A DNA stretch of 64,000 nucleotides from contig CP066684.1 in NCBI GenBank assembly GCA_016432325.1, positions 785,090-849,089 of the forward strand, in the 5' to 3' direction. This DNA is from Candidatus Aenigmatarchaeota archaeon. GTDB taxonomy: Archaea; Aenigmatarchaeota; Aenigmatarchaeia; PWEA01; JACQIF01. Below the pieces are notes generated by a model. The model was given only the letters and a program-made list of their open reading frames with translations. It had not been told where the DNA came from and made no database searches. Below are positions 26,218 through 63,999 of the stretch, one piece after another. A program made the position numbers and the translations under genes. Position 1 is the stretch's first letter. Each line of letters begins with the position of its first letter.

Positions 26218-27501
26218 CTAGACGTCAATCGTATCCCCGACGGCAGGCGCGACGGCGTCAAAGCCGTGCTCTTCCTTGAGCGCCGCGGCGAACTTCTTGG
26301 TGTCCTCCCCGTGGATGCAGACGACGCGTTCCGGATTCAACGTTTTGATGTAGTTCACGAGTTCGCTCCTGCCCGCGTGCGCAGAGAAGTCGAGCTTTTC
26401 AAACGGAACCTTGAGCTTGAACTCCTTCTTCTCCGTCTTGTAGACGCCTGTCTCGAGAAGCGCTTTTCCCGCGGAGCCTTCGGCCTGGAAGCCCGTCATT
26501 GCCAGATACGAGTTTCTGTCATCCTTCAGGTGTTCGAGGTAATGAGCGACAGGACCGCCGTTGAGCATGCCGGAAGTCGTGATGATTACGCACGGATGCT
26601 TCTTCTTGAGAATCTTCTCGCGCGCTTGGTTGTTCGTCACTTTCTTTGCTCTGGCGAACACGCGCTGGAGCATCTGCGGGTATCTCAGGAACTCCGAGTA
26701 GCGCAGGGCGATGGCCGTAGCGTCGCGGCACATGCCGTCCACGTATATCGGCACGTCGATGCCGTACTTTTCCAGCACGAGCAAGAGTTCCTGTGCGCGG
26801 CCGACTGCGAACGAAGAGACCAGCGCGACGCCGTCATTGTTCACGGCTTCGCGTATGCGCTTTATCAGGTGCTTCTCTGTCTCGTCGCGGTTCGGATGCT
26901 CTTTCGTTCCGTAGGTGGACTCTATTATCAGCGTCTTCACGTCCTCGCGCACCGGACTCAGGCCGTTCAGGAGCTCTGTCTTTTCGACCTTCATGTCGCC
27001 TGTGTAGACCACGACTCCTTTTCCTGTGTCTATCACGGCCTGCCCCGAGCCCGGGATGTGGCCCGCGTCGTAGAACATCACCTGCGAGTTGCCTATCTCG
27101 AACTGCTGGCCGTAGGCGACGCGAAACGCGTTGGCGTACATCGTGGAGACGTCCTTGGAGAAATACCCGATGCCGTGGCCCTTGATTTTGGCGAGCTTGA
27201 GGCTGTCCTTCAAAAGCAGGTCCATCAGGTCGAGAGTGGTCGCGGACGCATGCACCGGCCCTCGATAGCCGCGGTTGTAGAGAGAAGGCACGAAACCGCC
27301 GTGGTCCAGGTGGGCGTGCGAGACTACGACGCCGTCGAGTTTAACGGACGCCGCCATCGGGAACGCGGGCTGGTCAACGCCCTCCGCGCCTGTGACGACC
27401 TTTATTCCGTAGTCCATCAATATGCGTTCGCTTCCTGTGTCCAGCACGAATCCGGAACGGCCGACCTCTTGGGCGGCGCCGAGGCATTGTAACTTCATCA
27501 T
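26218..27501 (-). CDS. metallo-beta-lactamase fold beta-CASP ribonuclease (aCPSF2/RNase J-like)
   Basis: HAHLDHGG zinc-binding motif, beta-CASP region, C-terminal IHGE; TATA (TATATAAG on minus) about 30 nt upstream of start at 27501. Confidence 0.7.
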   Translation of the reverse strand: MMKLQCLGAAQEVGRSGFVLDTGSERILMDYGIKVVTGAEGVDQPAFPMAASVKLDGVVVSHAHLDHGGFVPSLYNRGYRGPVHASATTLDLMDLLLKDSLKLAKIKGHGIGYFSKDVSTMYANAFRVAYGQQFEIGNSQVMFYDAGHIPGSGQAVIDTGKGVVVYTGDMKVEKTELLNGLSPVREDVKTLIIESTYGTKEHPNRDETEKHLIKRIREAVNNDGVALVSSFAVGRAQELLLVLEKYGIDVPIYVDGMCRDATAIALRYSEFLRYPQMLQRVFARAKKVTNNQAREKILKKKHPCVIITTSGMLNGGPVAHYLEHLKDDRNSYLAMTGFQAEGSAGKALLETGVYKTEKKEFKLKVPFEKLDFSAHAGRSELVNYIKTLNPERVVCIHGEDTKKFAAALKEEHGFDAVAPAVGDTIDV

Positions 27502-27602
27502 CAAAATCCTGTGCGACGTTTCCCACAAGCGCTTATATAGCTTCTTCTTGAAGTCTTCTTCGGTGTCCCTGATGAGCAACGGCCTTTACGAGAAACGTCT
27601 TT

Positions 27603-35233: not shown

Positions 35234-35271
35234 CATACCCGTTATTAATAGATTCGTCCTCTATCCGAAGT

Positions 35272-36135
35272 ATGCTATTGGACTTTGTCGTTGATGGCCA
35301 TGGCAAAACCAAGATCTTTGTCGAACGGCTTGAAACGCTTTTTGGTGCGACGTTTGTGGCGGCGTCACCGAACCACCCGCTGAGCCATGGAAAGCCTCTG
35401 GGAAGTTTTACCGGAGCATACGCGGCCAATCCCGTCAACAACGAGAAAATTCCTGTTTGGGTTGCGGCGTATGTCAGAGACGGAGCCGTCGCGGCCGTTC
35501 CCGCTCACAGCCAAGCGGACTATGTGTTTGCAAAGGAACACGGACTACCCATCAGAACAGTAATCGAACCGCTAACAGGCGAGCCTCAGCAAAATCCCGA
35601 ACTCCGACGCAGTATAGTCGCGCTTGTTGCAAATCCGCAGACAAACCAAATCCTCTCCATTAACTGGGGGCCGCAGGCCGGAGGCAATCTTCTCATAGGA
35701 GGCGGCCGCGAAGAAAATGAAGATCCCGTTGAGTGCGCTAAACGGGAGATAGCCGAAGAGACAGGGTATAGAGACGTGACGTTGGTCGCACAGTCCGAGC
35801 GCATCCACCACCGCTACTTTGCGCACTCGAAGAACAAGGCTCGCCAGATAGAAGCGATCGGCCTTTTCTTCAATCTGCAGAGCAACGAAAGGATAAATCC
35901 AAAACTAGAGGCAGACGAAGTTGGCAGGTTTAAAGTCGAATGGCTTTCCGAACCCGATGCGGCGGAACGGATCAGAGACGAACTCCATCGTTACGTGTTC
36001 GCCAAATTCATCAGGGACGAAGTTCACAGCGGCGAAGGCATCCTCATTAACTCCGGCAATTATAGCGGTATGAATTCGAGACAAGCCTGCGAACAGATGA
36101 CGAAGGACTTCGTAACCCAGATCGAACAGCGTTGA
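35272..36135 (+). CDS. chimeric protein: LeuRS-like linker segments flanking a Nudix hydrolase domain
   Basis: ETLFGATFVAASPNHPL and IPVWVAAYVRDGAVAAVPAHSQADYVFAKEHGLPI resemble bacterial-type LeuRS motifs; central Nudix box GGGREENEDPVECAKREIAEETGY; C-terminal ILINSGNYSGMNS resembles LeuRS segment after CP1. Confidence 0.5.
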   Translation: MLLDFVVDGHGKTKIFVERLETLFGATFVAASPNHPLSHGKPLGSFTGAYAANPVNNEKIPVWVAAYVRDGAVAAVPAHSQADYVFAKEHGLPIRTVIEPLTGEPQQNPELRRSIVALVANPQTNQILSINWGPQAGGNLLIGGGREENEDPVECAKREIAEETGYRDVTLVAQSERIHHRYFAHSKNKARQIEAIGLFFNLQSNERINPKLEADEVGRFKVEWLSEPDAAERIRDELHRYVFAKFIRDEVHSGEGILINSGNYSGMNSRQACEQMTKDFVTQIEQR

Positions 36136-42137: not shown

Positions 42138-42701
42138 ATGCAAAAGGCGTATTTCAAAGGCTTTGGGCTGGAGATATTTGACACGGTTTACGCGCCACGG
42201 GAAGATACGGAACTGCTTCTTGACATTCTTGACGTCAAGCGTGGCGAGCGCGTGCTGGAGATAGGAATCGGTTCTGGCGTCGTTTCCATCGCGGCGGCCA
42301 AACGAGGCGCAGATGTGACGGGCGCGGACATAAATCCGGAAGCCGTCAGGTGCGCCGAGAGGAACGCAGAGACGAACAACGTCCGCGCCACGTTTTTGCA
42401 GAGCGACCTTTTCGCGAACGTCAGCGGAACATACGATGCAGTGCTGTTCAACGCTCCTTATTTGCCTGTTGCAGAAGACCCAATCTGGTCCGCGGGCGAG
42501 AATCTGGAGGTTTTGGAGAGGTTCGCGCAGGGATTGGGCAAACATCTGAGACCGGAAGGACGTGCGTTGGTCGTAATATCATCCTTGACAGGCATTGAGA
42601 AGGTCAAGAAGATGTTTGAGAAGAACGGATTCGCAGTTTCAATGGCAGGCGAAAGGAAGGTTCCAGGAGAGACGCTGTACGGCTTAAGAATAGAAACCTA
42701 A
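42138..42701 (+). CDS. HemK/Mtq2-family protein (release factor glutamine) methyltransferase
   Basis: SAM-binding LEIGIGSG and NAPY (NPPY-type) motif; TATATAAA 25-30 nt upstream, leaderless. Confidence 0.7.
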   Translation: MQKAYFKGFGLEIFDTVYAPREDTELLLDILDVKRGERVLEIGIGSGVVSIAAAKRGADVTGADINPEAVRCAERNAETNNVRATFLQSDLFANVSGTYDAVLFNAPYLPVAEDPIWSAGENLEVLERFAQGLGKHLRPEGRALVVISSLTGIEKVKKMFEKNGFAVSMAGERKVPGETLYGLRIET

Positions 42702-48911: not shown

Positions 48912-49163
48912 TCACCTGTATATGTTTTTCCTGTGCCCAAGAGAAAGGATAAAGACGACCTTCTCTTTATTGTCAAGCTTTGCCAATACGCGGTAGTCGC
49001 CGACGCGCAGTTTATAATCCACCCTGCCTGTAAGCCGTTCCAGATAGTGCGCCGGGCGGGAGGCGGCCCTTTCCAGACTGTCCAGGATGCGTTTGGCCGT
49101 GGCGTTGTCCAGTTTCCGCAGTTCGGAGACCGCCTCGTCGGAGAACACAAGCCTGAAGGTCAC
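48912..49163 (-). CDS. relE: RelE/ParE-family type II toxin
   Basis: 83 aa; C-terminal YRVLAKLDNKEKVVFILSLGHRKNIY typical of RelE/ParE. Confidence 0.7.
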   Translation of the reverse strand: MTFRLVFSDEAVSELRKLDNATAKRILDSLERAASRPAHYLERLTGRVDYKLRVGDYRVLAKLDNKEKVVFILSLGHRKNIYR

Positions 49164-49402
49164 CGTATCCCCAGCTCTTCTCTAATCTCCCGCAGCGTGC
49201 GGGTCCTTCCCCTCTTCACGTCTGCCAGGGCTCTTAGAAGAGAGGCTTTGAACTCGTCGGTATACTCTCCCTCATCGTCTCCCGAAGGAACGAGTTCCAG
49301 AAGAGCGTTCAGCAGCTCGTCATACGTTTCGCCCTCAGTTTCCTTGAGCCGCGCGAGCCTCCCCCTCGTCTCCCTGCTTATCTGTATTGTGGTGTAGGAC
49401 AT
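49160..49402 (-). CDS. type II antitoxin
   Basis: 80 aa; stop overlaps toxin GTG start (GTGA); acidic C-terminal half. Confidence 0.55.
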   Translation of the reverse strand: MSYTTIQISRETRGRLARLKETEGETYDELLNALLELVPSGDDEGEYTDEFKASLLRALADVKRGRTRTLREIREELGIR

Positions 49403-50065: not shown

Positions 50066-52222
50066 CTAAGACGGTCCCAAGGACTTCTGTCCGTCTTCCA
50101 ACCCCTCCTTCGCATGCAGCTGCTTGTGAACGTCCGCGGCAAGCTTTTCACCGAGCAACGGTTTCAACTTTTCCAGAGGCGCGTCGCGTATTTTTGTCAG
50201 CGATGTCAGCCCGGCATTGTGCAGCGTCCTCGCACGCACGCGTCCTATCCCTTTTAGAGCGACGAGCGCAACGAGTTCTTCCTTGATGCCGTACTTTACG
50301 CGCACGCGGGCCTTGCGCAGTTCGCGCATCTTTTCCTTAAGTCCTGTCAGCAGAGCCATCTCTTCCGCGGCGTACAGCAACCAGTCCGCGGTTTCGAGGC
50401 GCGCACGCAGCTCGCCTGGCGTTGTGCCATACTCTTCAAGAAGCCAGTCTTCGCCCGCTTCGGACGCCCATGCGTCCAGAACAATCGCGCACTTCATTGC
50501 GTTGACGAAGTCGTCATACTCGCTGTCCCACGGTTCCGGCGCGCTCACCCCGCGCGATTCGGCTTCGGCCAATAGCGCCGCAACCTCGCCGTCCTTCGCG
50601 CGTCCCGGAGCCATCTCCCGCGTGTTGGCTATCATGAGAAGGCTGTCAAACACACTCGTGCACTTTTCCAATGTAGTCATCATCGAGAACGCGGTCTCGG
50701 GGTCGATGTAGAGCTGCGACACGCGCGTTCCAATCCGCGTGGCTTCGAGCCCTCCGTCACGTGTTATGAATCCCTGCTCTTCGAGTCTCGACAAGACGCG
50801 TTCGACTGTCGCACGTATCTTCTCCAATTCCTTATACTGGTGCGCGAAAAACGTTCCCTGCAAGAATTTCCACAGCCCCTCCTCTGAAGCGACGTGGGAC
50901 GCGATGAGCGCGAGCGCATGCATCCTCAGTATCGGCTCGACCCCGAGCTTCGAGAGTATCTCTTCTGGCTTTCCTTGTATGTACCTCTTGACAAGGTCGT
51001 GCGCTTCCAACTCCGAGCGCGCGAGAAGAACGGCTTCGCCTTCATTGTCGTACTTCGGACGCCCTGCCCGGCCGGCCATCTGGTGGTATTCGAGAACGGG
51101 AATGAAGACAGAACCGTACATGGGATGGAAGCGCTTGACGTCGCGTATGACGACGCGATATGCCGGGAGATTCAGGCCTGCCGCAAGTGTCGGCGTGGCC
51201 GCGATGACCTTGATTGCGTTCTCCTTGAAGGCGCGCTCGACAAGCGAACGCTGCGGCCCCGCGAGACCGGCGTGATGGAAGGCCGTGCCTTTGCGGATGC
51301 AGCGAGCGAGGCGCTCGCACTGTTTTGTCGGGCGCGAAGTGACGTTGAGAATGTCTTCTGCAAGCTTGGCGAGTTTCGCGCGTTCGTCGGCCTTCAACTT
51401 CGTTCCTATCGATTCTCCGCACTTCTCTGCGACGGATTCGGCGTTGCGCCTCGAGGACGCGAAGACGAGCGCCTGCTTGCCTTCGGCGACCGTGCGGTCG
51501 CAGATTTCCAATTCCACATTCTCTTCGTTCGCGAGTTTGAAGTCACGGTCGCTTTCGGGGAAGCGTACGGCTTCGCCGTCGTAAACGCCTTTGTAGAGGG
51601 CGACAGGCCTGTAGTCAGACGTTACGAGCTCTGCGTTGAGCCACGATGCCAGTTCTTTTGCGTTTGCTATTGTCGCGGACAGACCGATTATCTGCGGTTT
51701 GTATTCGCGCAGGCGCGTCAGCACGACTTCCAGCGTGGGTCCGCGCGTTTCATCATTCAACAGGTGCACTTCGTCTGCAACGACAAGACCGACGTTGAGT
51801 ATCCATGCAGGACTGTGGCGCAGAAGCGAGTCCAGCTTCTCGGAAGTGGCGACAATAAGGTCGTACGAGCCGAGCCAGTCGTCTGCGGTGTCATAGTCGC
51901 CCGCCGAGACGGCGACGCGCACGCCGAGCTTTTCATACTTCCTGAAGTCCTCGAGCTTTTCAGAAGCGAGCGCGCGGAGCGGAACGATGTAAAGGACTTT
52001 TCGCTTCTTTTCCAATATCATCTTGAGGAACGCGAGTTCCGCGATGAGCGTCTTGCCCGAAGCCGTCGGAGACGCTACAACAAGGTTCTTGCCCTGCAGA
52101 AGGCCTGCTTCTATCGCAAGTTTCTGCGGAGGATTGAGACTCGTGACGCCTCCCAGTACGAGCGTGCTGCGGGCTTCCTTGGGCAGTTCGAGAGAGTCGA
52201 CGTGCATGGTTTGCGTACGCAC
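50066..52222 (-). CDS. hel308: Hel308/Ski2-like ATP-dependent DNA helicase
   Basis: Walker A (ASPTASGKT), DEVH box, C-terminal helix-hairpin-helix-like domain; 718 aa. Confidence 0.85.
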   Translation of the reverse strand: MRTQTMHVDSLELPKEARSTLVLGGVTSLNPPQKLAIEAGLLQGKNLVVASPTASGKTLIAELAFLKMILEKKRKVLYIVPLRALASEKLEDFRKYEKLGVRVAVSAGDYDTADDWLGSYDLIVATSEKLDSLLRHSPAWILNVGLVVADEVHLLNDETRGPTLEVVLTRLREYKPQIIGLSATIANAKELASWLNAELVTSDYRPVALYKGVYDGEAVRFPESDRDFKLANEENVELEICDRTVAEGKQALVFASSRRNAESVAEKCGESIGTKLKADERAKLAKLAEDILNVTSRPTKQCERLARCIRKGTAFHHAGLAGPQRSLVERAFKENAIKVIAATPTLAAGLNLPAYRVVIRDVKRFHPMYGSVFIPVLEYHQMAGRAGRPKYDNEGEAVLLARSELEAHDLVKRYIQGKPEEILSKLGVEPILRMHALALIASHVASEEGLWKFLQGTFFAHQYKELEKIRATVERVLSRLEEQGFITRDGGLEATRIGTRVSQLYIDPETAFSMMTTLEKCTSVFDSLLMIANTREMAPGRAKDGEVAALLAEAESRGVSAPEPWDSEYDDFVNAMKCAIVLDAWASEAGEDWLLEEYGTTPGELRARLETADWLLYAAEEMALLTGLKEKMRELRKARVRVKYGIKEELVALVALKGIGRVRARTLHNAGLTSLTKIRDAPLEKLKPLLGEKLAADVHKQLHAKEGLEDGQKSLGPS

Positions 52223-52245
52223 AGAAGGTATTAAATCGTTACGGT

Positions 52246-52839
52246 TCAGAGGGGCCGCCAGTCGCCGTCGTCCGGGTGAAGCTTATCCCGCGCTTTTGCC
52301 ACGATGTCCTCGAATTCTTTATCTATTCTCCTGCAGGCTTCGTCCGTGGCCGCGTCGAACCATTTGCTAGTGTCCAAGAAAAGGTCCACTGCAGGCAGAT
52401 AGGCGTCGAAATTTTCTGGCAACGGCTCTATAGTTGCTCCTATAAAGATTCGTGTCATTCCAGAGTCGGGATTCTGGAGAGGGGATATTGTGACGTATGC
52501 ACCCGCTTTCGTGAGTTCCTTGTCGCGTGTTATACTCCCGTTCACGCGGGAGCCCAGATGCTTGGTTATCATTGCCAATTCCCTGCCAGTGAGCATCGAG
52601 GGCGGGGCTATCATGTTTGTTGCTCTGAATCTGTTAGAGACATACGGCTCTCCGGCCCCCGATCCACTGATGTCGAAGACTTGCGTGTTGATGGCGTGCC
52701 CTTCTCTGGCTGTTGCGTAGTCGCCCAGCGCGCCGATAAGAACGTCCCGGTACCCCGTATCGGATACGATTGGCCGGAGTTCTTTGAGCTTCGTCTTGGT
52801 CTTGGCCGAATCAAACACGACATGCGAAGCAGCTGCCAT
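52246..52839 (-). CDS. hypothetical protein
   Basis: 197 aa; own TATA-like elements in upstream gap; no family recognised. Confidence 0.4.
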   Translation of the reverse strand: MAAASHVVFDSAKTKTKLKELRPIVSDTGYRDVLIGALGDYATAREGHAINTQVFDISGSGAGEPYVSNRFRATNMIAPPSMLTGRELAMITKHLGSRVNGSITRDKELTKAGAYVTISPLQNPDSGMTRIFIGATIEPLPENFDAYLPAVDLFLDTSKWFDAATDEACRRIDKEFEDIVAKARDKLHPDDGDWRPL

Positions 52840-52936
52840 ACAATAACACCCAGCCGATTAAGGATGGAAAACTATTTAAACCGCTTGCGGCGTTTTAAAG
52901 TTACCGCGCCGAGCGCAGTAACTATTTAAGGCGCAT

Positions 52937-53545
52937 TTAGAGTTCCTTCACCGTAAACCTCCACACGTCTTCTATGCATTCGCGCAGCGTCTCGAGGTTC
53001 GCGTGGCGTGCAGGAATCAAGCGCGCCTGAATCCTGCTCTTGTGGCGTTCAAGCGCTCCGCACTCTTTCGCGAACGCCTTCACGGTTTCGCGCGGGCCGC
53101 CGAAGAATATGTGCTCTATGAGAGACTGGCCGAGCAGGACCTCGAAAGAGAAGCAGACGCCGTCCAGAAATTCGCTGCGCTGTTGCGAACGTACGCGCGC
53201 GTAACGCGAAGAAGACGAGCCGCCCTTCTTCGTGCGTCCGCGTATGAAATGGTGGCCGGTCTTGTACAGGACGAGCGAAGTGCCTTCGAAGAGGCCTATG
53301 GCATACTCGCCCATATGGACGAGTACAACCGCAATCTTTGGCCGCGACGCCAGATGTTCAGCGAGCATCGTGTTGCGCGGCGTTATCAGCTCGGGGCGCG
53401 GAGGAAAAGGAGGCTCGGCGAGGTAGCGCTTGTCGCCGGCGCTTACTGTGTATGCGACGCCGTCGAAAGAAACCTCGTGCGGGCCGAGCGCGCGCAAGAA
53501 CGACCCGAACTCACTGCGCTTCATCCGTTTTTTCATCAGAACCAA
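52937..53545 (-). CDS. eRF1-domain-2-like protein, possibly VLRF1/Vms1-type peptidyl-tRNA hydrolase
   Basis: 202 aa; RGRTKKGGSSSSRYARVRSQQ loop resembles the Gln-containing catalytic loop of VLRF1/eRF1-like domains; tentative. Confidence 0.35.
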   Translation of the reverse strand: MVLMKKRMKRSEFGSFLRALGPHEVSFDGVAYTVSAGDKRYLAEPPFPPRPELITPRNTMLAEHLASRPKIAVVLVHMGEYAIGLFEGTSLVLYKTGHHFIRGRTKKGGSSSSRYARVRSQQRSEFLDGVCFSFEVLLGQSLIEHIFFGGPRETVKAFAKECGALERHKSRIQARLIPARHANLETLRECIEDVWRFTVKEL

Positions 53546-54116
53546 AACCTTCTGTTCGCGGCACGTCTGGATGAGGCGCCGTTTGTGTAGCCGTGTTGGC
53601 CTGCGTTGCTTCCTCAGCCTCCTGCTTTTTGAACATTTCGATTAAGTCCTTGCGAGAGCTTATGCCGAAATATGACATGAAGTGGTCCGTGAGCTCGATG
53701 CGCTTTGAGCGCCTGTACTTCTCCGTTTTTATCAAACCGCGCTCTTCCAGGTCTTTGACGTAATCGTATCCGCGGTTGCCGATGGTCTTTACGATGTCGC
53801 TCTGCGTTATGGGTTGCTTGTATACGATAAGGGAAAGCGCTTTCAAAAGACCCCGAGACAAGTCCGCGTAGGGCGTCAGGTGCGCGACGCGCTGCGCGTG
53901 CGGTTTCTTGACGCGCATCTCGTAACGTTCGCCCACTTCCACAATCTCCATTCCTTTGTGCTCGGCCTTGTATTCCAGGATAAGCTCTTCTATGCACGTT
54001 TCGACCTCCTGTTCGGGAAGCTCGACTATCTTGGCTATCTCCTCGACGCTCAAAGGCCCGCTCGCCTGAAAAAGTGCGGCTTCCAAGAGAGCGCGTTTGT
54101 TGGTGTCCATTCTCAC
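53511..54116 (-). CDS. scpB: segregation and condensation protein B
   Basis: N-terminal LEAALFQASGPLSVEEIAKIV winged-helix typical of ScpB; directly downstream of scpA. Confidence 0.75.
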   Translation of the reverse strand: MRMDTNKRALLEAALFQASGPLSVEEIAKIVELPEQEVETCIEELILEYKAEHKGMEIVEVGERYEMRVKKPHAQRVAHLTPYADLSRGLLKALSLIVYKQPITQSDIVKTIGNRGYDYVKDLEERGLIKTEKYRRSKRIELTDHFMSYFGISSRKDLIEMFKKQEAEEATQANTATQTAPHPDVPRTEGFGSDEKTDEAQ

Positions 54117-54919
54117 TCCTCTTTCTTCGAATGCCGATCATTCGAAGTTTTCGAATCCTGCGATTCGATAGTCTCTGCTTTGCTGAAGTCTTCGTCCTCC
54201 TGTTCTTCGACGCGTGCTTCCTTGCCTTCGGAGACACGGACATATATCTCCTTGAAAGGCTCCTCCTGCTCGAGCGTGACGCGGCCGTCGTTGCTCATGT
54301 GCAGCACGCCGAGGAGCGATTGAACGATTTCGCGGCGCTCCCATTTCGTGACGAGCGACGAGAAGGGCATCGTGCCTGACTTGAGCTGTTCGACCGTCTC
54401 GGAGATGCGCGCGTAAAGCTCGTTTATCTTTTTGGTGACGTCGAAACCCTCGTCCGCTACGACCTCTTCCACGCGCTCGCGCGCCCGCTCGACCTTCACT
54501 TCCCTGCGCTCCTGCGTGCTGAAGGCCTTTTCCAGCGCGCTCACCAGCTCGTCCAGCGTGACGCGTCTTGTCGGAACGCGCTTGGCCGGAACCTGCAGTT
54601 CTGGCACCTTCGTTATGTCTATCGGCGGGCCCTGCGCTGCCGCGGCAGCGTTCCTCTGTTCCTCCTCCCACATGAGCACCTCGGCTTTCATGTGCAGAAG
54701 CACGGCAGCGATCATTATCAGGCGCGCGGGGACCTTGAACTCCAAAACGCCTGCTTTCGTTACGTAAACGCGAAACGCGTCGGCGAGCTTGACGACGTCC
54801 ACGTCCCACGGGTCCATTCCTTCTTCTCTTATAACGTATTCCAGAACCTCCTCCCAGGACGCTTCCTTGGACGCCAGGTCCACTATGCCGGCCTCGTCTA
54901 TCGTTGAATCCACCTGCAC
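54113..54919 (-). CDS. scpA: segregation and condensation protein A (kleisin)
   Basis: 268 aa; overlaps scpB by 4 nt; same strand as smc. Confidence 0.65.
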   Translation of the reverse strand: MQVDSTIDEAGIVDLASKEASWEEVLEYVIREEGMDPWDVDVVKLADAFRVYVTKAGVLEFKVPARLIMIAAVLLHMKAEVLMWEEEQRNAAAAAQGPPIDITKVPELQVPAKRVPTRRVTLDELVSALEKAFSTQERREVKVERARERVEEVVADEGFDVTKKINELYARISETVEQLKSGTMPFSSLVTKWERREIVQSLLGVLHMSNDGRVTLEQEEPFKEIYVRVSEGKEARVEEQEDEDFSKAETIESQDSKTSNDRHSKKEE

Positions 54920-54963
54920 AGCTTGGGGACCGAAATTATATATCCGCGAGACTCATTGCACCC

Positions 54964-55413
54964 ATGGGCAAAGGCCTGAGCGAACTCGTATCCGCAGTTC
55001 TGATACTGGCCTTTGCCATAGCCATAGCCGTCATCGTTTCCACGTTTTCCACCGGTTTCGCCAGGGAGAGCATAGGAAAAACCCACATCGAAGGCGAGCG
55101 GACGGCAGACTGCAACGGCGCCGGTCTGGACATACTGGCCGACAGCATTGCTTCCAGCGGCACGACGCTCTTCGTTACGGTTAAAAACACCGGCCTGCCG
55201 GACCTGACAAACGTTGACTTCGTCTACCGCAATACGACAGACTCGGCCTACCTGACAGTGGACATCAATGAAACGGTAGCTTCGGGCCAGATAAAGACGC
55301 TCCAGATAAAAGGCATAAGCAGCCCCATAAACCGCATAATAATGACGACCGGCTGTCCAGGGATAACGGACACGGTGGAAAACGTTTCCGGAACATTCGA
55401 GCCCGTGACCTGA
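54964..55413 (+). CDS. archaeal type IV pilin-like protein
   Basis: Class III signal peptide (MGKG|LSELVSAVLILAFAIAIAVIV); TATA (AATTATATAT) about 25 nt upstream. Confidence 0.6.
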   Translation: MGKGLSELVSAVLILAFAIAIAVIVSTFSTGFARESIGKTHIEGERTADCNGAGLDILADSIASSGTTLFVTVKNTGLPDLTNVDFVYRNTTDSAYLTVDINETVASGQIKTLQIKGISSPINRIIMTTGCPGITDTVENVSGTFEPVT

Positions 55414-55448: not shown

Positions 55449-55937
55449 ATGCACGGTAAAGGCATCAGCCCTCTCATAGCGACCATCCTGCTCGTGGCGC
55501 TGGTGGTGGCCATAGCGGCCCTCTCGTCCCAGTTCGTCATAAACTTCCAGCAGGAGAGACAATCGGAGATAGAAAGCAAAGGGTCGCAGAGGTGCACCTT
55601 CACGGCCTTCGTCATAGATCCGGACAGCGTCTCCTACACGCCGGGCACCACGACGCTTTTGGTGACTGTGAGAAACACGGGCTCCGAGGACATCATAATC
55701 AAGGACATCGTGTACTCCAATACCACTTCCAGAATCCGCGAGGTGGCCGTAGCCACGAAGAGGAGGGACTACGGCACGATAAACGCCACGTACCCGCTCA
55801 AGCCGGGCCAAGTGGAGACCATACAGAACACGACCGTCGGTTCGAGACCCGAGGAGATAACGGTCACGACAGACTGTCCGGCGGCGACAGACACCGTGCT
55901 GAACGACACGACCACAAACAAGTTCAAGAGGATTTAG
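55449..55937 (+). CDS. archaeal type IV pilin-like protein (paralog)
   Basis: Class III signal peptide (MHGKG|ISPLIATILLVALVVAIA); shares C-terminal TTGCPGITDTV/TTDCPAATDTV motif with neighbour. Confidence 0.6.
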   Translation: MHGKGISPLIATILLVALVVAIAALSSQFVINFQQERQSEIESKGSQRCTFTAFVIDPDSVSYTPGTTTLLVTVRNTGSEDIIIKDIVYSNTTSRIREVAVATKRRDYGTINATYPLKPGQVETIQNTTVGSRPEEITVTTDCPAATDTVLNDTTTNKFKRI

Positions 55938-55971: not shown

Positions 55972-58425
55972 TCAGTTGGTTGGCAGTTCTATCGCAACAG
56001 CCTTCGAAACGCCGTCTTCCATTGATATGCCGTACACGCGATCTGCGAGGCGTATCGTAAGGTCGTTGTGCGTTATGAGTATGAACTGGGCGGCGTTCGA
56101 ATACTTCTTTATCAGCTCCGCGACCTTCTTGCTGTTCCTCTTGTCCAGAGCCGCGTCTATCTCGTCCAGCACGTAGAACGGAGCGGGCTTGTACATCTGC
56201 ACGGCGAACAGGAACGCCAGCGCGGTCATCGTCTTCTCGCCGCCTGACATCGCGTCCAGGTGCAGCTCGCGCTTGCCCTCGGGCCGCGCCTTTATGAGAA
56301 GGCCGGAGCGTATGTCGGTGGCGGCCTCCAGTTCTATCGCGGCCTCGCCTCCGTTGAGGTCTGCGAATATCTGGCTGAAGTGCGTTGCAATCGCGCCGAA
56401 GGTCTCCATGAAGGCCTGCACGCGCTTGGCTTCCACGGACGCGGCCATCTCCAGAACGGCCGCCTTCTCGTTCTCTATGATGCCAACCTTCTTGCTGAGG
56501 TCCTCGTAGACCTGCTTGTGAAGCTCGTAGTCTTCTATGGCCTTGAGGTTGACCGCTCCGATTCGGTTGAGGCGTTCGAGGACGCGCTTCTTGTTGTTCT
56601 CCAGAACCTCTATTGTCCCTTCCGTATAGAAGTCGTTCTTCTCGAAGAATTCTACGAACGCCTCTTTCTCCACGTTGAGGTTGCCTATCTCCACCTCGTA
56701 TTTCGCGCGTTCGACGCTCATCCTGCCCATCTCGTTTTGCACGGCGAGCATCCTGTTGAAAGCCTCGTCGCGCTTCGCGCGCAGCGCGTCGATGCCGTCC
56801 AGGGTCTCCTTGAGCTTCTTCTCGAACTCGTTCTGCGTTAGTGTCGTGCGCTCCCTTTCGGCGAGTTCCTTGAGCTGTTTTTGAAGACGCGCGACGTCGG
56901 CTTCGAGGGTTTCCACCTGAGCCGCGAGCTCCTGCTTCTGTTTGGCGTAGCGGTTGCTCTCGTCGTCCCGCTTCCGCAGGAAGCCGCCTGTCATGGCGCC
57001 GCTCTTCTGCACGAGCTCTCCCTCAAGAGTAACCATGCGCGCGGCGCCGATGTGCCTGCGCGCCGTCTGAAGAGTGTCGACGACGACCGTCTCGCCAAAG
57101 ACGTGGCGGAACGCGGTTTCATACTTTGAGTCGTACTCGACAAGATTCAACGCGAAGTCTATTACTCCTTCATTGCCTATCAACGCCTTCGCATCCTTGC
57201 CGCGTTCGCGCACGTCGAGCTTGTTGAGAGGCAGGAACGTCGCGCGGCCTACTCGCGCGCCCTTCAGATGCTCTATGCATTCCTGTGCCGTCGCGTCGGT
57301 GTCGACGATGACGTCGTGCAGAGCGTTTCCTGCGGCGATTTCAACGGCGGTCCTGTACTGCTGGTCCGTCTTCATGAGTCCGGATACTGTCCCGTGCACG
57401 CCTTTCTTGCCCAGCGCGAGCACGGCCTTGGCGACGAAGTTGTCAGACACGACCGCCAACTCGTCGAGGCGCGCGATTTCGCGCTTCGCGTATTCGATTC
57501 TGTCCAGCTTTCGTTCCATTTCCCCTCGCAGGGACGCCAGTTTTTCTATGGCTTCCCTGTTGCCGGCGCGCATGGCCAGAGCGGTCGCCGTCCTCTCCTC
57601 CTTCTGCAGCTCGCCGACCTCTTTGTCGATTACGCCGATTTCCGCTTGTACGGTATCAACCTTTTCCTTCTCATTGCCTATGCGTTCGTTCACGTTCGTC
57701 AGGCGTTCACTGAAGAAGTCCAGCCGTCGTTTGGTCATCGAGGCGCGAATCTTGCGCAGGTCGTTTTCCAGAGTCCGGTACTCGCGCGCCAGCTCATCCT
57801 CCTTCTTCAGGTTCTCCAGAATCTTCCTCTTCTCGTTCAGGATGATGTGGGCCTCCTTGAGCTTCCCGTCGACCTTCGCTATTTCCTGCTCGGCTTTGAG
57901 TTTCTTGTCGTCGAACTCGGCTATGCCGGAAATCTCGTCTATTATCTGCCTGCGTTCGAGGGGGTTCATTTCGATTAGGTTCGTGATGTCTCCCTGCAGG
58001 ATGATGTTGTGGCCGTCTGCGTAGATTCCTGCGTTGGCCAACACGTCGACGACGCGCCTGCGGTTCACTGTCTCGTCGTTTATCCTGTATACGGACACGC
58101 CTGACGCGTTCACCTTTCTGGTGACCTTTATCTCCGGTGGTTCGCCGGGAATCGTTCCGTCCGTGTTGTCGACGTAGAGCGAGACGGCGGCATACTTGGA
58201 ACCCTCGCGCTTGCGGCCGCCCTTGAAGACGAGGTCTTCCAGCTTGCCCGCGCGTATGGTTTTCGCGGAGCGGATTCCAAGAACGAACACCACGGCGTCA
58301 AGAACGTTAGATTTGCCAGAGCCGTTAGGACCGCAGATTGCGTTGAAGCCGGAAGGGAATGGCAGGACAGTGCGGTTCGCAAACGACTTGAAGCCCTGCA
58401 TTACGATGCGGTCTATGCGTACCAC
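55972..58425 (-). CDS. smc: SMC (structural maintenance of chromosomes) protein, compact 817-aa form
   Basis: N-terminal Walker A (GPNGSGKSN), central hinge, C-terminal signature LSGGEKT and Walker B (FYVLDEIDAALD); GTG start. Confidence 0.85.
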   Translation of the reverse strand: MVRIDRIVMQGFKSFANRTVLPFPSGFNAICGPNGSGKSNVLDAVVFVLGIRSAKTIRAGKLEDLVFKGGRKREGSKYAAVSLYVDNTDGTIPGEPPEIKVTRKVNASGVSVYRINDETVNRRRVVDVLANAGIYADGHNIILQGDITNLIEMNPLERRQIIDEISGIAEFDDKKLKAEQEIAKVDGKLKEAHIILNEKRKILENLKKEDELAREYRTLENDLRKIRASMTKRRLDFFSERLTNVNERIGNEKEKVDTVQAEIGVIDKEVGELQKEERTATALAMRAGNREAIEKLASLRGEMERKLDRIEYAKREIARLDELAVVSDNFVAKAVLALGKKGVHGTVSGLMKTDQQYRTAVEIAAGNALHDVIVDTDATAQECIEHLKGARVGRATFLPLNKLDVRERGKDAKALIGNEGVIDFALNLVEYDSKYETAFRHVFGETVVVDTLQTARRHIGAARMVTLEGELVQKSGAMTGGFLRKRDDESNRYAKQKQELAAQVETLEADVARLQKQLKELAERERTTLTQNEFEKKLKETLDGIDALRAKRDEAFNRMLAVQNEMGRMSVERAKYEVEIGNLNVEKEAFVEFFEKNDFYTEGTIEVLENNKKRVLERLNRIGAVNLKAIEDYELHKQVYEDLSKKVGIIENEKAAVLEMAASVEAKRVQAFMETFGAIATHFSQIFADLNGGEAAIELEAATDIRSGLLIKARPEGKRELHLDAMSGGEKTMTALAFLFAVQMYKPAPFYVLDEIDAALDKRNSKKVAELIKKYSNAAQFILITHNDLTIRLADRVYGISMEDGVSKAVAIELPTN

Positions 58426-61516: not shown

Positions 61517-62173
61517 ATGATCGATGTCGTCCTGATTCAGCCCGAACAGCCCGGGAACATAGGCGCTGTGGCGCGGGCCATGAAAAATTTCGGTTTTCAG
61601 GCGCTCGTTCTGGTGGACCCATGCGAGCTGACGGACGAAACGCGCGCCCAAGCGAAGCACGCATACGACGTCATAAAGAACGCGCGCATCCTGAGGAAAT
61701 TCGAGCCGAAGAAGTACGATTACGTCATAGGAACCACGGGGATAATGGGCGAAGGCCGGCCGTGCGTCACGCCTGAAGAGCTGAAGGCGCTCGTCCCGGG
61801 AGGCAAAGTAGCGCTTGTATTCGGCAACGAGGGAAGAGGCCTTTCGCGGCACGATATGGAGGCGTGCGACGTGCTGGTGCACATACCGACGTCAGATGCG
61901 TACGCAGTGATGAACCTCTCGCACGCCGCGGCGATAGTGCTATACGAGCTCTCGGGGGCCCATGGTAAAGAGGTATCGGGACGGAAAGAGAGGCGCGAAC
62001 TGGAGAAGGCCTTTATAAACATCCTTGATAATTTAGGGTATCGGAAAAAGGAGGACGCGGCCCGTGCGTTCGGACGTCTTGTGAACAGGGCTCCGCCGCG
62101 ACAGGACGAGGCTTCGACGCTGGTCGGGGTTTTGAAGCGCATAGAGAAAACGCTCAACGGTGAACGGTTATGA
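61517..62173 (+). CDS. SpoU/TrmH-family (SPOUT) RNA 2'-O-methyltransferase
   Basis: IDVVLIQPEQPGNIGAVARAMKNFG...LVFGNEGRGLS...HIP motifs; track ORF trimmed to ATG 61517. Confidence 0.7.
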   Translation: MIDVVLIQPEQPGNIGAVARAMKNFGFQALVLVDPCELTDETRAQAKHAYDVIKNARILRKFEPKKYDYVIGTTGIMGEGRPCVTPEELKALVPGGKVALVFGNEGRGLSRHDMEACDVLVHIPTSDAYAVMNLSHAAAIVLYELSGAHGKEVSGRKERRELEKAFINILDNLGYRKKEDAARAFGRLVNRAPPRQDEASTLVGVLKRIEKTLNGERL

Positions 62174-63366
62174 TGTACGCACAGATACCGACAGGAGACA
62201 CCCTGTTGCAGGTATTCTGGTTCGTCTTTTTCATCGGAATGTTCTTCTTCTACCCGCGGCTGCTGCTCTCCCAGACCATCTGGAAGATGGAGAAGGACCT
62301 CGCGGACCTCGAGAAGATGACCTCCGAATCGGTGAGGGCGCTGGCCAGAAAGATGAAGAAAGATTCGGACTCCAAGACGGTCGCGGAGATAACGGCCTTC
62401 CTCGACTTCTTCGCCCAGCCGCCTGTCGACATTGACCCGCGGGGAATAATGGCGAAGCTCGGAAAAACTATCAAGGAGCAGTTCGATTCGTTCACGGTCT
62501 TCGTCGAAGAGCATGCGGACGCCAAGGGCGTCGTCGAAAGGCGCAACCTCGAGGCGGCGCTGATAAACACGACAGGAGGCCACCAGATAGCGAAGGTCGT
62601 CCGCCACTATCTCGAAATCGTCAAGAAGTACAAGAATCTCCAGATCGCCATCATCATCCAGATGCAGATGCCCATGATACGGGACATCGCGGAGGCCGTC
62701 TCCAAATCCGTCAAGAGCCTTCTCGAGGGCGAGCCTGTCGGGGACGGAATCGGTCCGCTGGTCGTGGCGGAGATGATAGGGCCGTCGCACTACAAACACT
62801 TCAAGAACACGCAGATGGTCTACGCCGTCAAGAAAATGGACGGCAGGCGCGTCGTCTTCGTAAAGGCGGACGGTCCCGGAGCCGCCATAGGATACCCCGG
62901 AGAAGCGCTCGTGCCCCTGATAAAGAGATACAGGCCGTCGAGGCTGTTGACAGTGGACGCGGCCCAGAAGATGGAAGGTGAAACCACAGGCGCGGTCGCC
63001 GAAGGCGTTGGTGTCGTGATGGGCCCGATAGGAATCGTCCAGCGATTCGAAATCGAAGAGATCGCGACACGCATGAACATCCCGATAGACGCTCTCATAA
63101 TCAAGATGAAGGCCGAGGAGAGCATGTACACGATGAGCAAAGAGGTTTACGAATCCGTTCCAACCGTCACCGCTCTCGCCAAGAGAAAACTGCAGCGACT
63201 GCCTCGCGGACGCACGCTCATGGTTCTTGGCGTCGGGAACACGGTGGGCGTGGGCAACAACAAGAAGGAGCTGCGCGAAACCGAGACGCTTCTCAAGAAA
63301 GGCTTCAAGAAGCTTGCCAAGGAGGAAGCCGAACGCAAGAAAGAGAAGCGATTCTGGGAAAAGTAG
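62170..63366 (+). CDS. membrane-anchored conserved archaeal protein (DUF1512-like)
   Basis: 398 aa; N-terminal TM (VFWFVFFIGMFFFYP); overlaps upstream gene by 4 nt; family assignment from memory. Confidence 0.4.
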   Translation: MMYAQIPTGDTLLQVFWFVFFIGMFFFYPRLLLSQTIWKMEKDLADLEKMTSESVRALARKMKKDSDSKTVAEITAFLDFFAQPPVDIDPRGIMAKLGKTIKEQFDSFTVFVEEHADAKGVVERRNLEAALINTTGGHQIAKVVRHYLEIVKKYKNLQIAIIIQMQMPMIRDIAEAVSKSVKSLLEGEPVGDGIGPLVVAEMIGPSHYKHFKNTQMVYAVKKMDGRRVVFVKADGPGAAIGYPGEALVPLIKRYRPSRLLTVDAAQKMEGETTGAVAEGVGVVMGPIGIVQRFEIEEIATRMNIPIDALIIKMKAEESMYTMSKEVYESVPTVTALAKRKLQRLPRGRTLMVLGVGNTVGVGNNKKELRETETLLKKGFKKLAKEEAERKKEKRFWEK

Positions 63367-63408
63367 CCCGACGATAAGCATAATAAACGAACTTCTGCAA
63401 CGAATGCC

Positions 63409-63999
63409 ATGCGCATCACCTACGGCCTGATTATAGCCAACGTGCTGGCGTTCGTCGCGCTGGGGACGTTCGATCCTGTCCAGCAGCGCGCGCTTCTGGA
63501 AACCTTCGCGTTCTCCGGCCAGAACTTTCTGGGCGGCAGGCCGTGGACCGTATTGACTTCCATGTTCCTCCACGGCTCGCTCGTCCATATAGCGCTCAAC
63601 ATGCTCGCCCTGTTCTTCTTCGGCCACGCGCTTGAGCGCGAGGTTCGCTCGTCGGAGTACGCTCTAATCTACTTCGGCGGCGGCATTGCAGGGAACCTTC
63701 TTTCCCTTCTCGTGTTCCCCGCAGACCAGCTGTCCATCGGCGCGTCCGGCGCCATCTTCGCGCTTATAGGAGCCGCGATGCTGGTCAAGCCGTTCGATTT
63801 CGTGGCGTTCCCGTGGGTCGTCCCTGTGCCGATAATCTTCATCGGCGTAGTGATGATAGTGTCTAACGTACTTCTGTTCATCGCGCCTCCTGCAGGCAGC
63901 GACGTCTCGTTCGCGGCGCACGTCGGAGGCCTCTTCGCCGGTCTGGCCTATGGATTGCACAAGCGCGGATTCGTAAAAGGAGCGTTGCTCTTAGCGGCA
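63409..63999 (+). CDS. rhomboid-family intramembrane serine protease (3' partial, runs off window)
   Basis: Absent from ORF track because no stop within window; translation gives multi-TM protein with GASGAIFAL (catalytic Ser) and FAAHVGGLFAGL (catalytic His); TATA-like CATAATAAAC about 25 nt upstream. Confidence 0.65.
   Translation, partial: MRITYGLIIANVLAFVALGTFDPVQQRALLETFAFSGQNFLGGRPWTVLTSMFLHGSLVHIALNMLALFFFGHALEREVRSSEYALIYFGGGIAGNLLSLLVFPADQLSIGASGAIFALIGAAMLVKPFDFVAFPWVVPVPIIFIGVVMIVSNVLLFIAPPAGSDVSFAAHVGGLFAGLAYGLHKRGFVKGALLLAA

What the first reader, a model, noticed from the sequence alone, without database searches (positions are those of the whole stretch)
52246..53545. Possible VLRF1/eRF1-like peptidyl-tRNA hydrolase and an unknown protein between scpB and hel308
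All five genes from scpA to hel308 are on the minus strand. The 202-aa protein overlaps the scpB 3' end and carries a Gly/Ser/Gln-rich loop resembling the catalytic loop of Vms1-type release-factor-like domains. The neighbouring 197-aa protein is unassigned. If confirmed, this places a ribosome-quality-control hydrolase beside a DNA helicase and condensin genes.
Basis: inference. Interest (0 to 1): 0.45.

Follow-up and report, generated by a model that had tools for sequence, protein, structure and literature searches.

The report
Gln-less Vms1-like release factor in DPANN archaeon
The 202-aa gene really does encode a small release-factor-like (Vms1/acVLRF-1 type) ribosome-rescue protein in an Aenigmatarchaeota genome, but its presumed catalytic glutamine and two conserved histidines are replaced, its link to condensin and helicase genes looks like plain gene-order conservation, and the neighbouring 197-aa protein stays an orphan of unknown function.

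Summary
Both minus-strand ORFs are real genes. The 202-aa ORF (probable start ATG 53536, 199 aa) matches Pfam acVLRF1 (70.5 bits, E 2e-19). Its confident model (pLDDT 88.9) matches aRF1/eRF1 M domains and yeast Vms1, so the family call holds.

It is not a typical member. It belongs to a five-sequence Aenigmatarchaeota clade, about 35% identical to Chloroflexota acVLRF-1. The N-terminal extension is about 47 residues shorter. The Gln of the family motif GGxSQ is Ser or Ala (window: GGSSS; two relatives carry GGQ). Two histidines invariant in the bacterial proteins are Arg and Thr. The di-glycine, Ser111 and the basic helix are kept, and dN is far below saturated dS. "Hydrolase" is therefore unproven.

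In all five loci the start codon lies 26–44 nt inside scpB, with hel308 downstream. Overall gene order is conserved among these genomes, hel308 has its own TATA-like element, and four sampled bacterial homologues have no such neighbours. A functional link is unsupported.

The 197-aa gene fills a variable slot. It has two remote relatives, no family match and a weak secretion-chaperone/YbjN-like predicted fold. Verdict: a new variant of a known kind, of modest interest.

The parts
52937..53536 (-). Gene for a stand-alone acVLRF-1-like (Vms1-like release factor) protein. It is 199 aa from ATG 53536; the mechanical ORF runs to TTG 53545 (202 aa), and NCBI aa from ATG 53524.
   Evidence: Pfam acVLRF1 70.5 bits, E 2e-19; eRF1_2 35.6 bits. 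AF2 model pLDDT 88.9. Foldseek hits to aRF1, eRF1, Vms1 and Pelota. Coding log-odds +0.22. dN 0.33-0.45 against saturated dS.
53195..53263 (-). Codons for residues 95-117 (202-aa numbering), the equivalent of the release-factor catalytic loop: K95-T-G-H-H99-F-I-R102-G-R-T105-K-K-G108-G109-S-S111-S112-S-R114-Y-A-R117. The GG codons are at 53219-53224. Ser112 (53210-53212) sits where the family has its Gln.
   Evidence: Ungapped alignment to acVLRF-1 and aRF1 loops. Column counts. The GGxSQ motif is described in PMC6514570.
53511..53536 (-). Overlap between the scpB 3' end and the start of the VLRF1-like gene, read in different frames.
   Evidence: Read from the sequence. The same arrangement occurs in L001, L002, L003 and L009, with overlaps of 26, 32, 41 and 44 nt.
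53511..54116 (-). scpB
   Evidence: Pfam SMC_ScpB 125.9 bits; TIGR00281 92.4 bits against a cutoff of 89.2.
54113..54919 (-). scpA; its end overlaps the scpB start by 4 nt.
   Evidence: Pfam SMC_ScpA 53.5 bits.
52899..52923 (-). An 11-bp hairpin followed by UUUAAAA, starting 14 nt after the stop codon of the VLRF1-like gene. It may mark the end of the scpA-scpB-VLRF1 transcript.
   Evidence: Inverted repeat I1. The stem appears in both the MFE and centroid folds; the whole-region z-score is only -1.57.
52870..52884 (-). TATA-like element (GCGGTTTAAATAGTT on the minus strand), 34-41 nt upstream of the ATG of the 197-aa gene. A second copy lies at 52920-52934.
   Evidence: Direct repeat D1, 15 nt, 87% identical, 50 nt apart. 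A similar ATTAATAGTT sits before hel308 in L002. The promoter role is inferred from the archaeal TATA consensus and was not tested.
52246..52839 (-). Gene for a 197-aa orphan protein of unknown function. It lies in a slot between the VLRF1-like gene and hel308 whose content varies between related genomes.
50066..52207 (-). hel308. The likely start is ATG 52207, with ATTTAATA at 52229-52236 about 25 nt upstream.
   Evidence: NCBIfam Hel308-type helicase 798 bits; Pfam DEAD plus Helicase_dom4_arc. Sequence read. The L002 orthologue starts at the equivalent Met.

Best explanation
Window 52937-53536 (minus strand) encodes a small stand-alone member of the archaeo-eukaryotic release-factor superfamily. 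It consists of a short N-terminal beta/alpha extension plus the RNase-H-like 'M' domain that carries the loop inserted into the peptidyl-transferase centre.

It belongs to a narrow Aenigmatarchaeota-specific offshoot of the acVLRF-1 family. That family is the Vms1-like factors so far described in Actinobacteria and Chloroflexi. The offshoot may have been acquired from bacteria.

Inferred mechanism. The protein has no stop-codon-reading N domain and no C-terminal GTPase-binding domain. It therefore cannot act in normal termination. It most likely docks in the empty A site of a stalled ribosome, or of a split large subunit that still holds peptidyl-tRNA. It would push its di-glycine loop into the peptidyl-transferase centre and promote release of the nascent chain.

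In this clade the canonical Gln and two loop histidines have been replaced by clade-specific, conserved residues. Release, if it occurs, must work without the Gln (backbone or Ser-positioned water), or the protein acts by binding only.

The gene is expressed as the last cistron of scpA-scpB-VLRF1, with its start inside scpB. This linkage is best read as inherited gene order in compact genomes, not as a functional tie to condensin or Hel308.

The 197-aa gene is a separate, lineage-specific insertion with its own promoter-like element. It has an uncertain chaperone/YbjN-like predicted fold and is not part of the module.
For: Shown:
- Family and fold. Pfam acVLRF1 70.5 bits against a cutoff of 27.1. 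A profile of the family hits aRF1 3agk at 1.9e-19. The AF2 model has pLDDT 88.9 and pTM 0.82. Foldseek hits include aRF1 4af1 at 4e-7, eRF1, Vms1-60S 6r84_R at 7.6e-6, Pelota and Balon.
- Architecture. The protein is about 200 aa with no N or C release-factor domains. It is the only aeRF1-like ORF in the window.
- Conserved ribosome-facing features. G108, G109, S111, R114, R117, Q122 and F126 are invariant across 65 sequences.
- Loop length. There are no indels in the loop relative to the family.
- Purifying selection. Five intact orthologues have dN 0.33-0.45 with dS at or above 1.6. The clade-specific replacements H99, R102 and T105 are themselves invariant.
- Nearest relatives are Chloroflexota proteins. 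In a crude NJ tree the clade is monophyletic in 200 of 200 bootstraps and nested among bacterial sequences in 181 of 200.
- Operon layout. The scpA/scpB and scpB/VLRF1 overlaps, the hairpin after the stop, and separate TATA-like elements before the 197-aa gene and hel308.
- The Gln is not universal even in bacterial acVLRF-1: 52 Q, 5 A and 4 E among 61 sequences.

From the literature: prokaryotic VLRF-1 proteins are stand-alone and predicted to be single-component release factors (PMC6514570).

From my own knowledge, not checked here: in bacterial RF1/RF2 the GGQ glycines are far more critical for catalysis than the Gln, whose substitution mainly relaxes nucleophile selectivity (Shaw and Green 2007).
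Against: - The family-defining Gln of GGxSQ is absent. Vms1 release activity depends on its Gln (Q295; review PMC7026593).
- Release-factor homologues lacking this Gln (Dom34, most baeRF-1 families) are generally regarded as catalytically inactive (PMC6514570).
- Two His invariant in bacterial acVLRF-1 are also replaced. One of them is shared with aRF1 and eRF1.
- The NCBIfam acVLRF1 score is below its cutoff.
- No prokaryotic VLRF-1 appears to have been studied experimentally in the literature searched.
- Ribosome binding, substrate and activity are all inferred.
- The rest of the genome was not examined for aRF1, Pelota, ABCE1, RqcH/NEMF or Pth2.
Confidence: 0.5

Rival explanations
1. Non-catalytic pseudo-release factor. 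The protein still binds the ribosomal A site but has lost chemistry. It would act as a Dom34/Pelota-like or Balon-like occupancy factor, for example in subunit splitting, hibernation, or shielding of peptidyl-tRNA-50S complexes.
For: The motif Gln is lost in 5 of 5 clade members at the family position. Both loop His are replaced in 5 of 5, and K107 is variable. The literature treats Gln-less homologues as inactive. Balon and Pelota are among the structural matches.
Against: The di-glycine, the invariant Ser111 and the exact loop length are retained, whereas inactive families typically show unconstrained loops. Two clade members carry a canonical GGQ, which suggests the loop still serves chemistry. 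The protein lacks the C-terminal domain through which Pelota and Balon are delivered by a GTPase (architecture).
Confidence: 0.3
2. The protein works with SMC-ScpAB and/or Hel308. This is the first reader's suggested significance: a release-factor-like protein functionally tied to chromosome condensation or DNA repair, with synthesis coupled to ScpB through the overlapping start.
For: The start codon lies 26-44 nt inside scpB in all five loci. hel308 is downstream in every locus long enough to show it.
Against: All five genomes are close relatives. ScpA, ScpB, Hel308 and AlaX are 63-77% identical and keep the same order (the order is shown for L001), so the linkage could be inherited synteny. 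The bacterial homologues sampled have unrelated neighbours: rhomboid, ETF, thioredoxin-like and ABC permease genes. hel308 has its own TATA-like element, and variable ORFs intervene. Nothing in the fold suggests DNA or kleisin binding.
Confidence: 0.05
3. The gene is a decaying remnant of a horizontally acquired bacterial acVLRF-1 and no longer has a function.
For: The N-terminal extension is truncated by about 47 residues. Catalytic-type residues are lost. It is the fastest-evolving gene in the block (52-60% against 63-77% identity). The clade is very rare, with five sequences in the databases searched.
Against: Five intact full-length ORFs. dN is far below saturated dS. 79 columns are invariant among four sequences, including clade-specific ones. 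Codon usage looks native. The fold prediction is confident.
Confidence: 0.05

Closest known systems
acVLRF-1 family (Pfam PF18859; NCBIfam NF041024 'acVLRF1 family peptidyl-tRNA hydrolase'), the Actinobacteria/Chloroflexi Vms1-like release factors of Burroughs and Aravind 2019 (PMC6514570)
   Same: It is the best profile match (70.5 bits). The architecture is the same: a short N-terminal extension plus the aeRF1 M domain, with no stop-codon or Pelota-type domains. The di-glycine, Ser111, Arg114, Arg117, Gln122 and Phe126 are invariant and the loop length is the same.
   Different: The host is a DPANN archaeon. Identity is only 28-39%. The score is below the NCBIfam cutoff. The N-terminal extension is about 47 residues shorter. 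GGxSQ has become GGSSS. H102 is Arg, H105 is Thr, G99 is His and K107 is variable. The gene overlaps scpB, which is not seen in the bacterial loci sampled.
Yeast Vms1 / human ANKZF1 (eVLRF-1), which release the nascent chain from 60S-peptidyl-tRNA in ribosome-associated quality control
   Same: The superfamily and clade are the same. Structural matches are 6r84_R at E 7.6e-6 and 5whg at 7.4e-5, aligned over about 190-206 columns. A presumed action on large subunits without stop-codon recognition is also shared.
   Different: No sequence-level hit to Vms1 in the PDB at E up to 1. Pfam bVLRF1 scores only 18.9 bits, below its cutoff. It has none of the accessory domains listed for eukaryotic Vms1 (Rei1-type zinc finger, ankyrin repeats, VIM). 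It lacks the Gln on which Vms1 activity depends. Whether it hydrolyses the ester bond or cuts off the CCA end is unknown.
Classical aRF1/eRF1 middle (GGQ) domain
   Same: These are the best solved-structure matches by sequence profile (3agk 1.9e-19) and by fold (4af1 4e-7). The basic helix after the loop aligns. Two clade relatives even carry GGQ-S-[SA], like eRF1 and aRF1.
   Different: The N (NIKS) and C domains are absent. TIGR03676 scores 39 bits against a cutoff of 234.7. The window protein has GGS, not GGQ, and lacks the His at -3 from the GG.
Gln-less aeRF1 homologues: Pelota/Dom34 and the bacterial hibernation factor Balon (baeRF-1 clade)
   Same: The catalytic Gln is absent. Both are structural matches. 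Pfam baeRF_family10 also scores 35.7 bits.
   Different: Those are three-domain proteins delivered by a translational GTPase. This protein has only the M domain plus a short extension, and it keeps the di-glycine.
For the 197-aa protein: type III secretion chaperone / YbjN-like alpha-beta fold (SicP, CesT, AmyR, DUF2170)

Membership tests
acVLRF-1 (PF18859 / NF041024) | Profile match above the curated threshold | tested here: inconclusive
   The Pfam threshold is met (70.5 bits against 27.1; E 2e-19; profile positions 2-129 of 130). The NCBIfam threshold is not met (79.5 bits against 125).
acVLRF-1 (PF18859 / NF041024) | aeRF1 RNase-H-like M domain with an extended loop between the third core strand and the following helix | tested here: met
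   The AF2 model (pLDDT 88.9) has strands 70-98, a loop at 99-109 and a helix at 110-138. Foldseek matches aRF1/eRF1 M domains and Vms1.
acVLRF-1 (PF18859 / NF041024) | Loss of the stop-codon-binding and Pelota-type domains, with a short distinctive N-terminal extension | tested here: met
   The protein is 199-202 aa. Residues 1-60 form a small beta/alpha unit. It aligns to the bacterial N-terminal extension but lacks about 47 residues of it. The family architecture is taken from PMC6514570.
acVLRF-1 (PF18859 / NF041024) | GGxSQ catalytic-loop motif with a conserved Gln | tested here: not met
   The window has G108-G109-S-S111-S112. The clade has S, S, A, A, S at position 112, and two members have Gln at position 110 instead. 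The motif definition comes from PMC6514570. In 61 bacterial members position 112 is Q in 52, A in 5 and E in 4.
acVLRF-1 (PF18859 / NF041024) | Peptidyl-tRNA release activity on the ribosome | not testable with these tools
   This needs biochemistry. No experimental study of any prokaryotic VLRF-1 was found.
eVLRF-1 / bVLRF-1 (Vms1, ANKZF1; PF18826) | GxuQ loop motif, the shared e/b-type N-terminal extension and, in eukaryotes, accessory domains (Rei1 zinc finger, ankyrin repeats, VIM) | tested here: not met
   bVLRF1 scores 18.9 bits against a cutoff of 27. No Vms1 chain appears among PDB sequence hits at E up to 1. There is no Gln in the loop. The protein is too short for accessory domains.
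Classical aRF1/eRF1 (TIGR03676) | Three-domain architecture with a stop-codon-recognition N domain, a GGQ M domain and a C domain that binds aEF1-alpha/eRF3 | tested here: not met
   TIGR03676 scores 39.2 bits against 234.7 and matches the M domain only (residues 60-192). The loop is GGS, not GGQ.
aVLRF-1 (archaeal VLRF-1 of Burroughs and Aravind) | Long N-terminal coiled coil plus a retained stop-codon-binding domain, with a GGxSQ motif | tested here: not met
   There is no coiled coil or N domain in a 200-aa protein. The motif is not met. No aVLRF-1 sequences or profile were available for a direct comparison.
Type III secretion chaperone / YbjN-like fold (197-aa protein) | Compact alpha-beta-beta-beta-alpha-beta-beta-alpha fold, detectable by structure comparison | tested here: inconclusive

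The most novel reading that the evidence does not exclude
The Aenigmatarchaeota clade is a repurposed release-factor-like protein. Its remodelled loop (no Gln, no His, a new invariant His99/Arg102/Thr105) would carry out a different reaction or a purely regulatory ribosome-binding role. Its obligatory start inside scpB would couple its synthesis to condensin production, giving a genuine link between chromosome segregation and ribosome rescue or silencing in a reduced DPANN cell.
Probability: 0.07. Interest if true: 0.65.

Novelty: new variant of a known kind. Interest (0 to 1): 0.35.

Why it matters
Vms1-like release factors in prokaryotes are known only from comparative genomics, and none has been characterised in the literature searched.

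This locus extends the acVLRF-1 lineage into DPANN archaea. It also offers a natural series of loop variants within one small clade: GGSSS, GGSSA and GGQSS/GGQSA, all without the two loop histidines.

If these proteins still release nascent chains, they would show which loop residues are dispensable. That would bear on the unresolved question of whether this clade acts as an ester hydrolase or as a tRNA CCA-end nuclease. If they do not, they would be a further case of a release factor turned into a binding-only ribosome factor.

The condensin/helicase neighbourhood that made the finding look striking is most simply conserved gene order. It should not be read as functional evidence.

Tried and rejected
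- Scans of GTDB species genomes and JGI metagenome contigs for more clade members with alignment A4 found nothing. A scan with ScpB (A5) found one more Aenigmatarchaeota locus, L009, among GTDB genomes and nothing in metagenome contigs.
- Viral-contig scans for both proteins found nothing.
- The 197-aa protein had no hit in Pfam, NCBIfam, PHROGs or PADLOC. It had no significant match in the viral structure library. The afdb50 library was unavailable.
- Three further HMMER hits to the 197-aa protein (P0125-P0127) are long repeat proteins of the Big/RTX/ExoX-C type, matched in several short stretches. I rejected them as compositional artefacts.
- The contexts of the two real relatives (L004, L058) are short contigs with uninformative neighbours.
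- The antisense ORFs 52276-52929 and 53003-53590 were rejected as genes: negative coding scores and no family hits.
- The slot ORFs of L001 and L009 are unrelated to the 197-aa protein and have no family hits.
- No clear Shine-Dalgarno motif was seen before the VLRF1 start in the five loci, so the mode of translational coupling is left open.
- The first tree script timed out. The faster NJ version is crude: p-distance based, with an aRF1 outgroup typed in. It is only suggestive of a bacterial origin.
- Shaw and Green 2007 and Kuroha et al. 2018 are not held in the paper library, so statements resting on them are marked as my own knowledge or taken from the review PMC7026593.
Full report
**What is in the sequence**

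One search lists two minus-strand ORFs at the stated coordinates: 52937-53545 (202 aa, TTG start) and 52246-52839 (197 aa, ATG start). They sit between scpB (53511-54116) and hel308 (50066-52222). scpA (54113-54919) lies upstream, and a short SMC (55972-58425) lies beyond two plus-strand pilin-like ORFs.

Exact-sequence hits show that the window comes from a Candidatus Aenigmatarchaeota MAG, on a contig of 874,869 nt. NCBI annotates both proteins there as hypothetical.

Both ORFs have coding-type codon usage, at +0.22 and +0.17 log-odds per codon. The long antisense ORFs score -0.03 and -0.22 and have no family hits.

The 202-aa ORF overlaps the scpB 3' end. The most likely start is ATG 53536, giving MKKRMKRSEF, 199 aa and a 26-nt overlap. 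The same CTG-ATG-AAA-AAA context recurs in a related genome.

**Family assignment of the 202-aa protein**

- Pfam places it in acVLRF1 (PF18859; 70.5 bits against a cutoff of 27.1; E 2e-19; nearly full profile coverage). Weaker hits are baeRF_family10, eRF1_2 and bVLRF1.
- NCBIfam gives the same best family, but below its curated cutoff (79.5 against 125). aRF1 follows at 39 bits.
- A profile of the protein and its first homologues hits solved aRF1 structures (3agk at 1.9e-19) but no Vms1 chain by sequence.
- An AlphaFold2 model built from a 65-sequence alignment is confident (pLDDT 88.9, pTM 0.82). It shows a small N-terminal beta/alpha unit followed by the RNase-H-like M domain, with a loop at residues 99-109 leading into a long helix.
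- Foldseek against the PDB returns aRF1, eRF1, yeast Vms1 on the 60S subunit (6r84_R, 7.6e-6), the Vms1 core (5whg), Pelota/Dom34 and the bacterial hibernation factor Balon.

The family-level interpretation is correct.

**How it departs from the family**

Burroughs and Aravind (PMC6514570) define acVLRF-1 as an Actinobacteria/Chloroflexi family. It has lost the stop-codon domain, has a short N-terminal extension, and carries a GGxSQ loop motif.

A profile search finds 1,618 relatives. The few listed hits that carry an organism name are Chloroflexota proteins, the listed hits are mostly about 250 aa, and they are 31-39% identical to the window protein.

The window protein belongs to a tight clade of only five known sequences:
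- the window itself;
- P0002 (locus L002);
- P0003 (locus L001);
- P0004 (locus L003);
- an ORF on the Aenigmatarchaeota contig L009.

These are 52-60% identical to each other, about 200 aa long, and lack about 47 residues of the bacterial N-terminal extension.

At the family's Gln position the clade has S, S, A, A, S. The loops read:
- window: GGSSSS
- L009: GGSSSA
- P0004: GGSSAG
- P0002: GGQSSA
- P0003: GGQSAG

The last two re-create a canonical GGQ two residues earlier.

Column counts show further changes. Two His residues are H in 61 of 61 and 60 of 61 bacterial sequences, at positions 102 and 105. Position 105 corresponds to the His at -3 from the GG in aRF1. In every clade member these are Arg and Thr. 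Gly99 has become an invariant His, and Lys107 is variable.

Other positions stay invariant across all 65 aligned sequences: G108, G109, S111, R114, R117, Q122 and F126. The loop has no indels.

This is not decay:
- All five orthologues are intact.
- dN is 0.33-0.45 while dS is saturated, at 1.6 or more.
- The clade-specific residues are themselves conserved.

The Gln is also not universal in the bacterial proteins. Position 112 is A in 5 and E in 4 of 61.

**Mechanism**

What is shown: the fold, the architecture and the pattern of constraint.

What is inferred: with no N or C release-factor domains, the protein cannot read stop codons or be delivered by a GTPase. Like other stand-alone VLRF-1 proteins, it probably enters the A site of stalled ribosomes, or of split large subunits that still carry peptidyl-tRNA.

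Several retained features argue that the loop still reaches the peptidyl-transferase centre:
- the di-glycine;
- the tiny residues around it;
- the fixed loop length;
- the arginine-rich helix.

Whether it then releases the chain is open. Vms1 activity depends on its Gln, and ANKZF1 cuts off the CCA end, leaving a cyclic phosphate (review PMC7026593). Gln-less homologues are usually taken as inactive.

On the other hand, from my own knowledge and not verified here, substituting the Gln of bacterial RF1/RF2 is much less damaging than substituting the glycines.

My weighting is:
- about 0.5 for a Gln-independent release factor;
- about 0.3 for a binding-only pseudo-factor;
- about 0.05 for a real link to condensin or Hel308;
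- about 0.05 for a decaying relic.

**The gene neighbourhood**

In all five loci the start codon lies inside the scpB tail, with overlaps of 26, 26, 32, 41 and 44 nt. scpA-scpB precedes it wherever the contig reaches that far. hel308 follows in every locus long enough to show it: the window, L001, L002 and L009.

This looks striking, but three results weaken it.

1. The genomes are close relatives and keep the same gene order more broadly. ScpA is 66-77% identical, ScpB 63-75%, Hel308 63-76% and AlaX 66%. In L001 the order scpA-scpB-VLRF1-hel308-NUDIX-alaX parallels the window.
2. The Chloroflexota homologues sampled have unrelated neighbours.
3. The transcription units appear separate. An 11-bp hairpin followed by UUU lies just after the VLRF1 stop. 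A TATA-like TTTAAATA precedes the 197-aa gene, and ATTTAATA lies about 25 nt before the hel308 ATG. L002 has a similar element before its hel308.

The promoter and terminator roles are inferred from consensus only.

**The 197-aa protein**

It is found only as itself in the word-indexed search. The exhaustive HMMER search of 1.84 billion representatives adds two convincing remote relatives of similar length: P0123 at 4e-8 and P0124 at 5e-6. They share motifs such as IGATIEP-P-N...YL..VDL. Three other hits are repeat proteins and spurious.

There are no Pfam, NCBIfam, PHROGs or PADLOC hits. Nothing was found in viral contigs or viral structures. The relatives' contigs are short and uninformative.

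The position it occupies is variable. It is empty in L002, holds two small ORFs in L001, and holds an unrelated 189-aa ORF in L009. The gene is therefore a lineage-specific insertion and not a partner of the VLRF1-like gene.

**Origin**

A crude neighbour-joining tree with an aRF1 outgroup recovers the archaeal clade in 200 of 200 bootstraps. It places the clade among the bacterial representatives, rather than outside them, in 181 of 200. This is compatible with acquisition from bacteria, but it needs a proper phylogeny that includes the archaeal aVLRF-1 family, which I could not sample.

**Verdict**

The 'hydrolase' label and the implied functional link to DNA genes are not established.

The feature is a new, narrowly distributed archaeal variant of a known family with a remodelled catalytic loop. 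It is of modest interest (0.35), mainly as a natural test of which loop residues matter in Vms1-like factors.

Noticed in passing
window 55972-58425 (-): The SMC protein is only 817 aa, whereas the profile it matches is about 1,165 positions long. It just passes the TIGR02169 cutoff (735.5 against 729.4) and has head and hinge domains, so its coiled-coil arms must be much shorter than usual.
   Followed up: partly
window 54904-55413 (+) and 55449-55937 (+): Two archaeal type IV pilin/flagellin-like ORFs sit on the opposite strand between smc and scpA. A similar pilin-like ORF lies next to scpA in L009.
   Followed up: partly
window 42138-42701 (+): A HemK2/MTQ2-family methyltransferase, passing NCBIfam cutoffs (179 bits against 162; TIGR00537 145 against 87). 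From my own knowledge, this family methylates the Gln of the release-factor GGQ motif. The Gln-less VLRF1-like protein about 10 kb away could not be such a substrate, but its GGQ-bearing relatives might be.
   Followed up: partly
window 48912-49402 (-): A ParE/RelE-type toxin (83 aa) with an upstream DUF7557 protein (80 aa), probably a toxin-antitoxin pair, lies between hel308 and alaXM. L001 carries HicAB and BrnT genes in the same general neighbourhood.
   Followed up: no
window 35197-36135 (+): A 312-aa ORF combines a fragment of the leucyl-tRNA synthetase editing domain (residues 69-131) with a NUDIX hydrolase domain (137-267). This is an unusual combination and could also be a mis-called start.
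   Followed up: no
window 52870-52884 and 52920-52934: A 15-nt direct repeat of a TATA-like element (AACTATTTAA..CGC on the plus strand), 50 nt apart, lies in the 97-nt spacer after the VLRF1-like gene. The promoter-proximal copy resembles the element before hel308 in L002. This suggests that insertion of the 197-aa gene duplicated the hel308 promoter region.
   Followed up: partly
bacterial acVLRF-1 homologues P0054, P0056, P0071, P0072, P0083, P0092, P0113 and others: Among the top 118 or so Chloroflexota-type acVLRF-1 proteins, roughly one in seven lacks the motif Gln (GGxSE or GGSSA). The 'catalytic' Gln is therefore not strictly conserved even in the core family.
   Followed up: partly
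L009 2616-3185 (+); L001 3851-4147 (-) and 4225-4458 (+): The slot between the VLRF1-like gene and hel308 holds different, mutually unrelated orphan ORFs in each related genome, and none in L002. It is a small hot spot of gene turnover.
   Followed up: partly
window 61720-63627 (-) and 21332-22777 (-): Two large ORFs (635 aa and 481 aa) have no NCBIfam match and essentially no Pfam match. The 481-aa ORF has only a sub-threshold DUF5817_CT hit.
   Followed up: no
window 23320-24363 (-) and 26218-27579 (-): An RNA 3'-terminal phosphate cyclase (RtcA) and a beta-CASP/RMMBL ribonuclease are encoded in the window. No tRNA gene was detected anywhere in the 64 kb.
   Followed up: no
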